This document shows positions 19,396 to 57,535 of a DNA stretch of 64,000 bases, one piece after another (the stretch's first letter is position 1; each line of letters begins with the position of its first letter). The notes below the pieces were generated by a model. The model searched no databases. It saw only the letters and a program-made list of their open reading frames with translations, and had not been told where the DNA came from. Made by a program: the position numbers and the translations under genes. Source of the DNA: Eledone cirrhosa. Its lineage: Eukaryota. Location: the NCBI GenBank assembly GCA_964016885.1, contig OZ024742.1, forward strand, positions 88,350,001 to 88,414,000. Reading direction: 5' to 3'.

Positions 19396-19500
19396 TACAT
19401 ATATATATATATATATATATATATATATATATATATATATATATATATATATAGAGAGAGAGAGAGAGAGAGAGAGAGAGAGAGAGAGAGAGGGAGAGAG
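19396..19500. repeat. (TA)n(GA)n microsatellite forming the left border of the array
   Basis: Read directly; it merges into the unit start agagaatttag. Confidence 0.95.
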
Positions 19501-22500
19501 AGAATTTAGTATATCTACTAACATATGCGTACAGATGTACGCTAATGCTAGCAAATACATAAGTTATGTCATAGTACCTAGGTGGTTCAATGCAGGAGGA
19601 TGCAGAACAATAATATGAAAGACGTAAAATGAGAAAATTTTAAAAAGAATTTAAAAAATTAACTTACTTACTAAAATTTTCACTCCAACTAATTAGTTTC
19701 TGCAATGGGATAAAGACAGTTACGTAATATAACCGTCGAGAATTCATTGCGTCATCAGGGAGTCTATTCTCAGCTAAGTCTCCAGGCAATGCGCGGACAC
19801 TGGCGACTCATATAAAAATAATAATAATTCGGTAGATGGAACAGCTAGCGAGGACTGGATTCCATGCACTGAAAAGCTCGCTGTTTCTGGTCAAATGGCA
19901 GATTCTAAAGAATCAATCACGTGACACTGAGGCTAATCGGTAGAAGTGGAATGGTAAGATGACAGAAGCCTACTACCACACCAATAAATTAGTAGTGGTT
20001 TTGGCAGGTTTGCTCAACAAATAAATAATTTGGAGATAAATATAGAGAATTTAGTATATCTACTAACATATGCGTACAGATGTACGCTAATGCTAGCAAA
20101 TACATAAGTTATGTCATAGTACCTAGGTGGTTCAATGCAGGAGGATGCAGAACAATAATATGAAAGACGTAAAATAAGAAAATTTTAAAAAGAATTAAAA
20201 AAATTAACTTACTTACTAAAATTTTCACTCCAACTAATTAGTTTCTGCAATGGGATAAAGACAGTTGCGTAACATAACCGTCGAGAATTCATTGCGTCAT
20301 CAGGGAGTCTATTCTCAGCTAAGTCCCCAGGCAATGCGAAGACACTAGGGACTCATATAAAAATAATAATAATTCGGTAGATGGAACAGCAAACGGGGAC
20401 TGGATTCCATGCTCTGAAAAGCTCGCTGTCTCTGGTCAAATGGCAGATACTAAAGAATCAATCACGTGACACTGAGGCTAGTCGGTAGGAGTGGGATGGT
20501 AAGATGACAGAAGCCTACTACCACACCAATAAATAGTAGTGGTTTTGGCAGGGTTGCTCAACAAATAAATAATTTGGAGATAAATATAGAGAATTTAGTA
20601 TATCTACTAACATATGCGTACAGATTTACGCTAATGCTAGCAAATACATAAGTTATGTCATAGTACCTAGGTTGTTCAATGCAGGAGGATGCAGAACAAT
20701 AATATGAAAGACGTAAAAAAAGAAAATTTTAAAAAGAATTTAAAAAATGATCTTACTTACTAAAATTTTCACTTCAACTAATTAGTTTCTGCAATGGGAT
20801 AAATACAGTTACGTAATATAACCGTCGAGAATTCATTGCGTCATCAGGGAGTCTATTCTCAGCTAAGTCCCCAGGCAATGCGAAGACACTGGGGACTCAT
20901 ATAAAAATAATAATAGTTCGGTAGATGGAACAGCAAACGGGGACTGGATTCCATGCTCTGAAAAGCTCGCTGTCTCTGGTCAAATGGCAGATACTAAAGA
21001 ATCAATCACGTGACACTGAGGCTAGTCGGTAGGAGTGGGATGGTAAGATGACAGAAGCCTACTACCACACCAATAAATAGTAGTGGTTTTGGCAGGGTTG
21101 CTCAACAAATAAATAATTTGGAGATAAATATAGAGAATTTAGTATATCTACTAACATATGCGAACAGATTTACGCTAATGCTAGCAAATACATAAGTTAT
21201 GTCATAGTACCTAGGTTGTTCAATGTAGGAGGATGCAGAACAATAATATGAAAGACGTAAAAAAAGAAAATTTTAAAAAGAATTAAAAAAATGATCTTAC
21301 TTACTAAAATTTTCACTTCAACTAATTAGTTTCTGCAATGGGATAAATACAGTTACGTAATATAACCGTCGAGAATTCATTGCGTCATCAGGGAGTATAT
21401 TCTCAGCTAAGTCTCCAGGCAATGCGCGGATACTGGGGACTCATATAAAAATAATAATAATTCGGTAGATGGAACAACCTAGCGGGACTGGATTCCATGC
21501 AGTGAAAAGCTCGCTGTCACTAGTCAAATGGCAGATTCTAAAGAATCAATCACGTGACACTGAGGCTAGTCGGTAGGAGTGGGATGGTAAGATGACAGAA
21601 GCCTACTACCACACCAATAAATTAGTAGTGGTTTTGGCAGGTTTGCTCAACAAATAAATAATTTGGAGATAAATATAGAGAATTTAGTATATCTACTAAC
21701 ATATGCGTACAGATGTACGCTAATGCTAGCAAATACATAAGTTATGTGATAGTACCTAGGTGGTTCAATTCTGGAGAATGCAGAACAATAATATGAAAGA
21801 CGTAAAATAAGAAAATTTTAAAAATAATTTAAAAAATTAACTTACTTACTAAAATTTTCACTCCAACTAATTAGATTCTGCAATGGGATAAATACAGTTA
21901 CGTAATATAACCGTCGAGAATTCATTGCGTCATCAGGGAGTCTATGCTCAGCTAAGTCTCCAGGCAATGCGCGGACACTGGGGACTCATATAAAAATAAT
22001 AATAATTCGGTAGATGGAACAGCTAGCGGGGACTGGATTCCATGAAGTGAAAAGCTCGCTGTTTCTGGTCAAATGGCAGATTCTAAAGAATCAATCACGT
22101 GACACTGAGGATTGTCGTAAGGAGTGGGATGGTAAGATGACAGAAGCCTACTAACACACCAATAAATTAGTTTTGGTTTTCGCAGGTTTGCTCAACAAAT
22201 AAATAATTTGGAGATAAATATAGAGAATTTAGTATATCTACTAACATATGCGTGCAGATCTACGCTAATGCTAGCAAATACATAAGTTATGTCATAGTAC
22301 CTAGGTGGTTCAATGCAGGAGGATGCAGAACAATAATATGACAGACGTAAAAAAAGAACATTTTAAAAATAATTTTAAAAATGATCTTACTTACTAAAAT
22401 TTTCACTCCAACTAATTAGTTTCTGCAATGGGATAAAAACAGTTACGTAATATAACCGTCGAGAATTCATTGCATCATCAGGGAGTCTATTCTCAGCTAT

Positions 22501-55500: not shown

Positions 55501-57535
55501 CAACTAATTAGTTTCTGCAATGGGATAAATACAGTTACGTAATATAACCGTCGAGAATTGATTGTGTCATCAGGGAGTCTATTCTCAGCTAAGTCTCCAG
55601 GCAATGCGCGGACACTGGGGACTCATATAAAAATATTAATAATTCGGTAGATGGAACAGCTAGCGGGCACTGGATTCCATGCAGTGAAAAGCTCGCTGTC
55701 TCTGGTCAAATGGCAGATTCTAAAGAATCAATCACTAGACACTGAGGCTAGTCGGTAGGAGTGGGATGGTAAGATGACAGAAGCCTACAACCACACCAAT
55801 AAATTAGTAGTGGTTTTGGTAGGTTTGCTCAACAAATAAATAATTGGAGATAAATAAAGAGAATTTAGTATATCTACTAACATATGCATGCAGATGTACG
55901 CTAATGCTAGCAAATACATAAGTTATGTCATAGTACCTAGGTGGTTCAATGCAGGAGGATGCAGAACAATAATATGAAAGACGTAAAATAAGAAGATTTT
56001 AAAAGAATTAAAAAAATTAACTTACTTACTAAAATTTTCACTCCAACTAATTAGTTTCTGCAATGGGATAAATACAGTTACGTAATATAACCGTCGAGAA
56101 TTCATTGCGTCATCAGGGAGTCTATTCTCAGCTAAGTCTCCAGGCAATGCGTGGACACTTTGGACTCATATAAAAATATTAATAATTCGGTAGATGGAAC
56201 AGCTAGCGGGCACTGGATTCCATACAGTGAAAAGCTCGCTGTCTCTGGTCAAATGGCAGATTCTAAAGAATCAATCACGTGACACTGAGACTAGTCGGTA
56301 GGAGTGGGATGGTAAGATGACAGAAGCCTACTACCACACCAATAAATTAGTAGTGGTTTTGGCAGGTTTGCTCAACAAATAAATAATTTGGAGAAAATAT
56401 AGAGAATTTAGTATATCTACTAACATATGCGTACAGATGTACGCTAATGCTAGCAAATACATAAGTTATGTCATAGTACCTAGGTGGTTCAATGCAGGAG
56501 GATGCAGAACAATAATATGAAAGACGTAAAATAAGAACATTTTAGAAACAATTAAAAAAATTAACTTACTAAAATTTTCACTCCAACTAATTATTTTCTG
56601 CAATGGGATAAAGACAGTTACGTAATATAACCGTCGAGAATTCATTGCGTCATCCGGGAGTCTATTCTCAGCTAAGTCTCCAGGCAATGCGCGGACACTG
56701 GGGACTCATAGATAAATAATTATAATTCGGTAGATGGAACAGCTCGCGGCGACTGGATTCCATGCACTGAAAAGCTCGCTGTCTCTGGTAAAATGGCAGA
56801 TTCTAAAGAATCAATCACGTGACACTGAGGCTAGTCGGTAGGTGTGGGATGGTAAGATGACAGAAGCCTACTACCACACCAATAAATTAGTAGTGGTCTT
56901 GGCAGGGTTGCTCAACAAATAAATAATTTGGTGATAAATATAGAGAATTTAGTATATCTACTAACATATGCGTACAGATGTACGCTAATGCTAGCAAAAA
57001 CATAAGTTATGTCATAGTACCTAGGTGGTTCAATGCAGGAGGATGCAGAACAATAATATGAAAGACGTAAAATAAGAACATTTTAAAAATAATTTTAAAA
57101 AATTAACTTACTTACTAAAATCTTCACTCCAACTAATTAGTTTCTGCAATGGGATAAAGACAGTTACGTAATATAACCGTCGAGAATTCATTGCGTCATC
57201 AGGGAGTCTATTCTCAGCTAAGTCTCCAGGCAATGCGTGGACACTGGGGACTCATATAAAAATAATAATAATTCGTTAGATGGAACAGCAGGAGGGGACT
57301 GCATTCCATGCACTGAAAAGCTCGCTGTGTCTGGTCAAATGGCAGATTCTAAAGAATCAATCACGTGACACTGAGGCTAGTCGGTAGTAATTGGATGGTA
57401 AGATGACAGAAGCCTACTACCACACCAATAAATTAGTAGTGGTTTTGGCAGGTTTGCTCAACAAATAAATAATTTGGAGATAAATATTGAGAATTTAGTA
57501 TATCTACTAACATATGCGTACAGATGTACGCTAAT
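19498..57535 (-). repeat. Tandem array of about 70 copies of a 541-546 bp unit carrying a hammerhead motif (satellite or retrozyme-like), with higher-order repeats
   Basis: agaatttag recurs at 19501, 20046, ... 57490; (57490-19501)/70 = 542.7 bp. Units are highly similar and carry shared diagnostic variants. Confidence 0.97.
19682..19763 (-). ncRNA. Type I hammerhead ribozyme motif (first of about 70 copies, one per unit)
   Basis: Minus strand: ACUCC CUGAUGA c GCAAUG aauucuc GACGGUUA uauuacg UAACUGUC uuuaucc CAUUGC a GAAA CUAAUUAG U U GGAGU. Stem I ACUCC/GGAGU, long stem II, palindromic stem III ACUAAUUAGU, triplet GUU. Predicted cut between 19687 and 19686. Confidence 0.85.

What the first reader, a model, noticed from the sequence alone, without database searches (positions are those of the whole stretch)
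19498..57535. 38 kb satellite whose 543 bp monomer encodes a hammerhead ribozyme (about 70 tandem ribozymes; retrozyme-like)
Seen: each unit has on the minus strand the hammerhead core (CUGAUGA ... GAAA ... UH) with all three stems. Stem I is ACUCC/GGAGU and extends past an internal loop via ACUUA-g-CUGAGA/UUUUAG-UAAGU. Stem II is GCAAUG/CAUUGC with an apical GACGGUUA/UAACUGUC hairpin. Stem III is ACUA/UAGU. First copy at 19682-19763. Established: hammerheads occur in newt satellite 2, schistosome Sm-alpha and cave-cricket satellites, and in metazoan non-LTR retrozymes, whose multimeric transcripts self-cleave to monomers that can circularise. Inference: read-through transcription here would give unit-length RNAs of about 543 nt, possibly circular. 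The unit is longer than the animal retrozymes I recall, and I do not recognise it as a described family. Caveats: a C-A mismatch at the base of stem II and a GUU triplet.
Basis: partly seen in the sequence, partly recalled or inferred. Interest (0 to 1): 0.92.

Follow-up and report, generated by a model that had tools for sequence, protein, structure and literature searches.

The report
Hammerhead retrozyme expanded into tandem array
The 38 kb repeat is one unusually long copy of a mobile, non-coding element that carries a predicted self-cutting RNA motif and is scattered through this genome in thousands of copies, and the ends of those copies suggest that the RNA really is cut at the predicted site and is copied back into DNA by a Penelope-type retrotransposon.

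Summary
The array is real: 70 units of 537-546 bp, each with a minus-strand type I hammerhead motif, but only 35 of 70 are fully intact. It is not a stand-alone satellite. The genome holds 10,840 exact core matches (control 0) in subfamilies 67-98% alike, mostly as 1-4-unit insertions in (AT)n. Stem II covaries through all four Watson-Crick pairs (92 of 92). The C·A opposition and U17 are family norms, not decay. Stem III is a palindrome, which points to dimer cleavage. Insertions have Penelope-like anatomy: in 48 of 48 classifiable two-armed copies one arm ends at unit position ~430 and the other at ~541. 5' ends peak at the predicted cut (30 matches versus 7, 7, 15 and 9 nearby), often on both arms, which is indirect evidence of cleavage in vivo. 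Verdict: a non-LTR retrozyme, most likely mobilised by a Penelope-like element, locally amplified by DNA duplication. No RNA, cleavage assay or partner element was obtained.

The parts
19498..57538 (-). Long arm: 70 head-to-tail retrozyme units plus a 50-bp 5' partial unit, with higher-order block duplications; its 3' end (long end, unit position ~541-545) is at 19498-19502
57534..57831 (+). Short inverted arm, unit positions 130-430, ending at the family's short 3' end; carries a hammerhead with U16.1 changed to G
19682..19763 (-). Type I hammerhead motif of unit 1 (C3 at 19758, G12 at 19700, U17 at 19687; predicted cut 19687/19686); repeated in every unit
19688..19697 (-). Palindromic stem III (invariant in 49 of 49 aligned family members, which were however selected by this motif), predicted to pair between two copies
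19767..19771 (-). 5' strand (GAGAA) of the predicted pseudoknot, upstream of stem I
19738..19742 (-). 3' strand (UUCUC) of the predicted pseudoknot, in the internal loop of stem II
19502..19612 (-). Tail of about 110 nt between the two fixed 3' ends (short end at 19613, long end at ~19502), holding a conserved long hairpin; candidate binding site of the mobilising protein
19391..19503 (.). (AT)n then (AG)n flank at the long 3' end; inferred target site
57828..57878 (.). (AT)n flank at the short 3' end; inferred target site

Best explanation
The unit is a non-autonomous, non-coding retroelement (non-LTR retrozyme). Step 1 (inferred): tandem copies are transcribed on the minus strand. Step 2 (structure shown by covariation, activity inferred): the type I hammerhead cuts after GUU, probably slowly and as a dimer through the palindromic stem III, with stems I and II held together by a short pseudoknot, so that the RNA pool holds cut monomers and partly cut multimers, and possibly circles. 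Step 3 (signature shown, enzyme inferred): the RT/GIY-YIG protein of a Penelope-like element binds the tail hairpin, nicks both strands of an (AT)n target and starts reverse transcription at two internal sites, about 74 and about 185 nt downstream of the cut, one site for each target strand. The two cDNAs run through the RNA, stop early or run off the ribozyme-made 5' end, and are joined back to back. Step 4 (shown): at this locus one such insertion, with the usual long arm and short inverted arm, grew to 70 units by DNA-level block duplication that also spread broken ribozymes.
For: 10,840 exact core matches genome-wide, reversed control 0; copies on many contigs at 92-100% identity and subfamilies down to 67%. 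Stem II pair 2 is C-G 25, U-A 24, G-C 23, A-U 20 in 92 of 92 distinct stem II sequences, slid controls 25-43 of 92 at that pair; about five changes on the tree, each on both sides. Whole structure 93.9% paired, 148 two-sided cells, 0 of 500 shuffles as high, slid controls 33-49%. Two-armed insertions: 48 of 54 classifiable, all 48 short+long, none short+short or long+long; 47 of these 48 have microsatellite-like flank at the left end and 47 at the right. This matches the PLE 'tail' and the two internal RT start sites of PMC11167929 and Fig. 2 of PMC8557442. A PLE family of the same genome (GIY-YIG P0001, weak RT match) has the same (AT)n target and two 3' ends about 65 nt apart, and one retrozyme 3' end is fused straight to its ORF (L147). 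5' ends exactly at the cut: 30 matches at 27 loci against 7, 7, 15, 9 at positions 353, 355, 359, 360 and 2 at 277; expected 9.0, Poisson P 9e-7 for 27. In 9 of 21 inversion junctions of that set both arms start at 355-358, against 4 of 58 unselected junctions with like starts anywhere. Array: 29 unit types in repeated blocks, 85 of 187 array-private alleles shared between types.
Against: No RNA data and no cleavage assay. GUU and a C·A at the base of stem II are expected to slow cleavage (own knowledge), and 8 of 9 predicted Xenopus retrozyme dimers did not cleave in vitro (10.64898/2026.07.22.740005). The peak at the cut is only about 2.4-fold over position 359 after correction (P 0.01); positions 352-375 are a truncation-rich AU hairpin in general (20 of 154 unselected truncations); a repeat of the test in a divergent clade gave 5 matches (3 independent events, one of them an internal deletion) against 2, too few to judge. 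No autonomous element sharing this unit was found: none of 30 loci of one PLE family holds it as its terminal repeat (one, L077, has a separate copy at its edge), and other PLE families were not screened. The pseudoknot's two-sided change rests on one or two events. Most cDNA arms pass through uncut sites. In PMC11167929 hammerhead cleavage was not needed for insertion in vitro.
Confidence: 0.8

Rival explanations
1. The element is mobilised as described, but the hammerhead does not cut in vivo; its fold is kept as a protein-binding or folding module, and the 5' ends at 357 come from RT stalling at stem III, fold-back in the adjacent AU-rich hairpin, or a transcription start there.
For: Non-standard base of stem II and U17 in 78 of 92 variants; a broad excess of truncations at 352-375; monomer fold is predicted inactive; PMC11167929 found cleavage dispensable and no RNA reads at the cut for its element.
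Against: The catalytic core is kept across 67-98% identical subfamilies while stems covary; position 17 is U, A or C in 91 of 92 variants and G in 1 (set selected only on the motifs upstream); the peak falls on the exact predicted nucleotide and both arms often end there.
Confidence: 0.11
2. The unit is the pseudo-LTR of an autonomous Penelope-like element; the dispersed copies and the array are truncated insertions of that element, not an independent retrozyme.
For: Anatomy (partial tandems, 5' inversion, tail, (AT)n target) is that of PLEs; a nucleotide between A9 and the G-C pair and a long stem II are PLE-hammerhead traits in PMC4209133.
Against: Tandem units join position ~544 directly to position 1 with no ORF between in every multi-unit locus read; no ORF over 102 codons in the array; arms longer than one unit continue into the next unit, not into coding sequence.
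Confidence: 0.06
3. An ordinary DNA satellite or DNA-transposon-like repeat with a chance hammerhead-like motif.
For: No Rfam hammerhead match; the array itself amplifies broken motifs.
Against: Covariation, strand-specific folding (circular monomer z -5.6 on minus, -3.0 on plus, 40 shuffles each), fixed 3' ends with variable 5' ends, and 5' ends at the cut all point to an RNA intermediate.
Confidence: 0.02
4. Element as in the best explanation, but the 70-unit length is partly an assembly over-expansion of identical blocks.
For: Several central blocks are identical or one change apart; the public data laid were contigs only and none spans the stretch.
Against: 54 distinct unit sequences and 29 types 8-22 changes from the subfamily consensus set a floor of about 29 real units; a second long array of another subfamily exists (about 19 units in the 10 kb of L155).
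Confidence: 0.12

Closest known systems
Metazoan non-LTR retrozymes (PMC7229834: coral, mussel, axolotl; 10.64898/2026.07.22.740005)
   Same: Non-coding low-GC tandem unit with one type I hammerhead, thousands of copies, from monomers to long arrays, predicted self-paired monomer, co-existing with PLEs.
   Different: Unit 543 bp (150-450 bp in PMC7229834, within the 51-972 bp of the 2026 preprint); a 50-nt stem II with internal loop and predicted pseudoknot; C·A at the base of stem II and mostly GUU; in the parts of those papers that I read no two-ended insertion rule or 5' ends at the cut are described; expression and circles untested here.
Penelope-like elements of the Neptune/Nematis or Poseidon kind and their pLTR hammerheads (PMC4209133, PMC8557442, PMC11167929)
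   Same: Partial tandems, 5' inverted arm, tail at one end only, microsatellite target, extra nucleotide after A9, palindromic stem III, 3' ends set at two internal sites downstream of the hammerhead.
   Different: No ORF; tail about 110 nt instead of 30-40; stem III is longer than in minimal PLE hammerheads; an extra A also lies before G12.
Newt satellite 2 and axolotl Rtz331/353 (as described in PMC7229834)
   Same: Satellite-like arrays whose hammerhead has a weak palindromic stem III and works as a dimer; HHR_Amex2 has a mismatch at the base of stem II.
   Different: Unit size, stem II architecture, mismatch type (C·A against U·U), (AT)n targeting; no sequence comparison was made.
Pseudoknotted hammerheads (PMC3088659)
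   Same: Stems I and II joined by Watson-Crick pairing instead of the loop-loop contact; about 40% of hammerheads in that survey.
   Different: Here the pairing strand sits in an internal loop of a long stem II; support is one or two compensatory events plus look-alike pairing in two sister families.

Membership tests
Type I hammerhead ribozyme | Core CUGANGA ... GAAA ... UH in order | tested here: met
   61 of 70 array units; 10,840 genome matches, control 0; H17 in 91 of 92 variants
Type I hammerhead ribozyme | Three helices round the core, open end in stem I, supported by covariation | tested here: met
   Stem II 98.3% paired with two covarying pairs, stem I 94.6% with one, stem III invariant
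Type I hammerhead ribozyme | Purine-pyrimidine pair 10.1-11.1 directly next to the core | tested here: not met
   C opposite A in 84 of 92, paired in 4 of 92; the next pair is G-C in 86 of 92. Active natural motifs with a mismatch there are reported (PMC3088659, PMC7229834), so this lowers expected speed, not the class
Type I hammerhead ribozyme | [quoted passage not shown] | tested here: inconclusive
   Pseudoknot 96.3% paired, G-C to A-U in 6 of 49 sequences but one or two events; a rival register in stem I has 2 two-sided cells
Type I hammerhead ribozyme | Self-cleavage 3' of nucleotide 17 | not testable with these tools
   Only indirect: peak of 5' ends at the predicted site
Rfam hammerhead families | Match at gathering score | tested here: not met
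   0 matches in the window; no hammerhead among 7 matches to E 10
Non-LTR retrozyme | Tandem units each with a type I hammerhead | tested here: met
   70 of 70 units score 148-173 bits with a family model built partly from them
Non-LTR retrozyme | No protein-coding capacity, GC below 50% | tested here: met
   Two stop-to-stop frames of 102 codons inside the array and one of 101 across its edge; GC 0.36-0.38
Non-LTR retrozyme | Dispersed, multi-copy, signs of retrotransposition | tested here: met
Non-LTR retrozyme | No LTR, primer binding site or polypurine tract | not tested
   No LTR-internal-LTR layout seen in the loci read, but no search for PBS or PPT was run
Non-LTR retrozyme | Expressed as linear and circular monomer RNA | not testable with these tools
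   No RNA holder listed; predicted monomer is well folded
Autonomous Penelope-like element | ORF with RT and GIY-YIG endonuclease | tested here: not met
Non-autonomous PLE derivative | PLE insertion anatomy (partial tandem, 5' inversion, tail at one end, microsatellite target) | tested here: met
   48 of 48 classifiable two-armed insertions
Non-autonomous PLE derivative | Sequence homology to the pLTR of an autonomous PLE | tested here: inconclusive
   None with the one PLE family examined (30 loci); the genome could not be screened whole

The most novel reading that the evidence does not exclude
Probability: 0.2. Interest if true: 0.75.

Novelty: new variant of a known kind. Interest (0 to 1): 0.52.

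Why it matters
Two questions are stated as open in the papers read: what mobilises animal retrozymes (PLEs are called a strong candidate in PMC7229834 and supported by phylogeny in the 2026 preprint) and what the hammerhead does in endonuclease-bearing PLE systems (called unclear in 10.1101/2021.04.23.441226; dispensable in vitro in PMC11167929). This family gives a sequence-only handle on both: a strict PLE-type two-end rule and 5' ends that pile up at the predicted cut. It also supplies a hammerhead architecture that Rfam misses, with about 10,000 natural variants for structure-function work, and a case of a mobile element turning into a satellite. The class of element, its size and long arrays are already known, which caps the surprise.

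Tried and rejected
Rfam scans gave no hammerhead. TRF cannot see a 543-bp period (limit 500). Sequencing runs: no RNA holder listed; two runs of unknown kind laid as contigs show the repeat present with many variants, nothing on expression. Metagenome scan: 6 pattern matches, all weak with the family model (11-19 bits, largely the pattern itself), taken as chance. Search for the autonomous partner through the window's own PLE fragment: that family has a different terminal repeat and a different minimal hammerhead. A search for a short-stem-II relative returned 56 matches that read almost all as deletion forms of the same family. Within- versus between-insertion identity, meant to tell one circular template from several templates, was inconclusive (tandem pairs closer than any other locus in 22 of 75, inverted pairs in 14 of 77). 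Replicate of the cut-site test in a divergent clade: too few. The idea that C·A and GUU mark decay was rejected. Earlier findings of this scan: none by place or sequence. The paper on dimer-cleaving PLE hammerheads (Lunse et al.) is not held, so its variants could not be compared; supplements of the bioRxiv preprints are closed and supplements of the PMC papers were not opened, and any of them may list this family or a like motif. Eight literature searches showed no description of this family or of 5' ends at the cut; some used a host-group name that is my recalled guess from the look of the flanking repeats and was not tested.
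Full report
Observation. The array is there. BLAST of unit 1 gives 70 full units from 19498 to 57486, a 50-bp partial unit to 57538 and an inverted piece at 57534-57831. Units are 537-546 bp, 95.3% alike on average, 54 distinct of 70, and fall into 29 types arranged in repeated blocks. 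(AT)n runs flank both ends. The minus-strand hammerhead of unit 1 lies at 19682-19763 with the cut predicted at 19687/19686. Only 61 of 70 units keep the core, 43 the stem III palindrome and 35 everything. Rfam does not see the motif. Unit positions below count along the minus strand of unit 1, the cut lying before position 357.

It is a dispersed family. The window's genome (G000, 3.0 Gb, 1,796 contigs) gave 2,672 first-look candidates, of which 39 were scored, on many contigs. An exact pattern for the core with a 41-70 nt stem II matches 10,840 times, the reversed control 0 times. Loci drawn from these lists (top matches, and early or hand-picked places on contig 1, so not a random sample) form subfamilies 67-98% identical to unit 1. 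Of 105 insertions counted, 8 round to 0 units, 59 to 1, 28 to 2, 7 to 3 and 3 to 4 (clusters touching a locus edge were left out, which biases against long ones). A second long array, of another subfamily, fills the 10 kb of L155.

The ribozyme fold is under selection. In 92 distinct stem II sequences the second pair is C-G 25, U-A 24, G-C 23, A-U 20 with no mismatch, and the fifth is U-A 53, G-C 33; the second pair changes about five times on a tree, always on both sides (a rough tree from 150 columns). On 49 representatives the full structure is 93.9% paired with 148 two-sided cells, above all 500 shuffles and far above slid controls. Other hammerhead families met in the same loci have U·U, A·A or C·A there, and the local PLE hammerhead also has U17. 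PMC4209133 (parts 1-2 of 4 read) lists an extra nucleotide after A9, a long stem II and a palindromic stem III as traits of PLE hammerheads that cut as dimers; PMC3088659 (passages) and PMC7229834 (parts 2-3 of 6 and passages) report active motifs with a mismatch at that place. Stem III is a 10-nt palindrome, unstable alone (+1.5 kcal/mol) and stable between two copies (-9.0); the monomer prefers a fold that buries the core. I infer dimer cleavage.

GAGAA upstream of stem I (19771-19767) is complementary to UUCUC in the internal loop of stem II (19742-19738): 96.3% paired, with G-C replaced by A-U in 6 of 49 sequences, though from only one or two events. A sister family with a unit of about 483 bp, which the family model finds at 29-32 bits, and another in L145 show like complementarity by eye. 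Pseudoknots between stems I and II are common in hammerheads (PMC3088659).

Insertion anatomy points to a Penelope-like enzyme. Copies have variable 5' ends and two fixed 3' ends, at about 430 and about 541, each running into (AT)n. Of 54 two-armed, back-to-back insertions 48 could be classified and all 48 pair one short with one long end; 6 had a damaged end. The window's array is one of the 48. The 110 nt between the ends hold a conserved hairpin (2 of 24 pairs with two-sided change in 20 sequences). PMC8557442 and its preprint (passages) describe partial tandems, an inverted 5' copy and a tail at one end only; PMC11167929 (parts 1-2 of 4) shows that the tail lies between two internal RT start sites downstream of the hammerhead and that both target strands are cut and extended. 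A PLE family abundant in this genome (35,754 candidates; GIY-YIG at window 7393-7869; weak RT match, E 0.0012, below cut-off) has the same target and two ends about 65 nt apart, and in L147 a retrozyme 3' end is joined directly to its coding region. Its terminal repeat is unrelated in sequence, so the actual partner is not identified.

5' ends mark the predicted cut. Patterns demanding three non-family bases before a given position count truncations there. At 357 there are 30 matches at 27 loci; read one by one, nearly all are true junctions, L172 and L175 being doubtful. Controls: 7 at 353, 7 at 355, 15 at 359, 9 at 360, 2 at 277 (control hits were judged from the listing only). With a base-composition correction 9.0 are expected; P is 9e-7 for 27, but only 0.01 against 359 alone. 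In 9 of 21 inversion junctions both arms start at 355-358, against 4 of 58 unselected junctions with like starts anywhere. The simplest reading is run-off from a ribozyme-made end. Against it: 352-375 is rich in truncations anyway (20 of 154), RT stalling at stem III or fold-back could give a like peak, and the replicate in a divergent clade was too small (5 against 2). Arms such as L157 and L164 start at the cut and then cross uncut sites, so templates include partly cut multimers; circles are neither shown nor excluded.

How the array grew. Its 29 types lie 8-22 changes from the subfamily consensus in roughly 15 poorly resolved lineages, and 85 of 187 array-private alleles are shared by two or more types. 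With block repeats and the spread of broken cores this shows DNA-level duplication after insertion. Whether the founder was a long cDNA or duplicated early cannot be told. Some identical central blocks could be assembly over-expansion.

Comparison and verdict. It works like, and by the testable features is, a non-LTR retrozyme; expression and circularity are untested. The 2026 preprint 10.64898/2026.07.22.740005 (parts 1-3 of 5 read, supplements closed) already reports units of 51-972 bp, arrays up to 300 units and PLE origin, and cleavage in only 1 of 9 dimers tested. So size and array length are not new. What my eight searches did not show in print are this family, its hammerhead architecture, the strict short-plus-long rule for a retrozyme and 5' ends at the cut. 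PMC6765202 and PMC13282606 were seen as passages only; the latter does not contain the words ribozyme or retrozyme. New variant of a known kind; interest 0.52.

Noticed in passing
window 7007-10300: Two-armed insertion of a Penelope-like element in (AT)n: GIY-YIG with an upstream CxxxxCxxC linker (Neptune/Nematis-like by PMC8557442), minimal hammerhead at +10051 with a U17 triplet, two 3' ends about 65 nt apart; frames are broken.
   Followed up: partly
window 11260-12486 (+): [quoted passage not shown]
   Followed up: no
window 722-1834 (+): 370-codon frame without Pfam match that looks like the C-terminal zinc knuckle and restriction-like endonuclease of an R4/Dong-type non-LTR element (recalled motifs).
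   Followed up: no
L113 585-1216, L114, L130, L139 3092-3240: Sister tandem family of about 483 bp with a hammerhead that has a standard G-C base pair, GUA triplet, another 10-nt palindromic stem III and like pseudoknot potential; related by covariance model.
   Followed up: partly
L011, L024, L111, L125, L126, L101, L145, L081, L107: Several more hammerhead-bearing repeat families, some tandem with periods near 310, 466 and 484 bp, next to the same (AT)n sites; the genome seems to hold many retrozyme families.
   Followed up: no
L155 (G000:C5:84706000-84715999): A second long tandem array of a diverged subfamily (about 19 units in 10 kb; matches spread over 33 kb), in which a GUG triplet variant recurs.
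   Followed up: partly
L147 about 338-2465: Retrozyme long 3' end fused without (AT)n to the coding region of the abundant PLE family, as a template switch would give; a single case.
   Followed up: partly
L190, L191, L192: Three related copies with an internal deletion that ends exactly at the predicted cut, as if RT jumped from a cut 5' end to another template.
   Followed up: partly
L007 flanks: The unique sequence on the two sides of the (AT)n runs is an inverted repeat of about 12 bp; not seen as a rule and not explained.
   Followed up: no
L029, L043, L044: Copies of different subfamilies sit directly next to each other, as if one inserted into the (AT)n flank of another.
   Followed up: no
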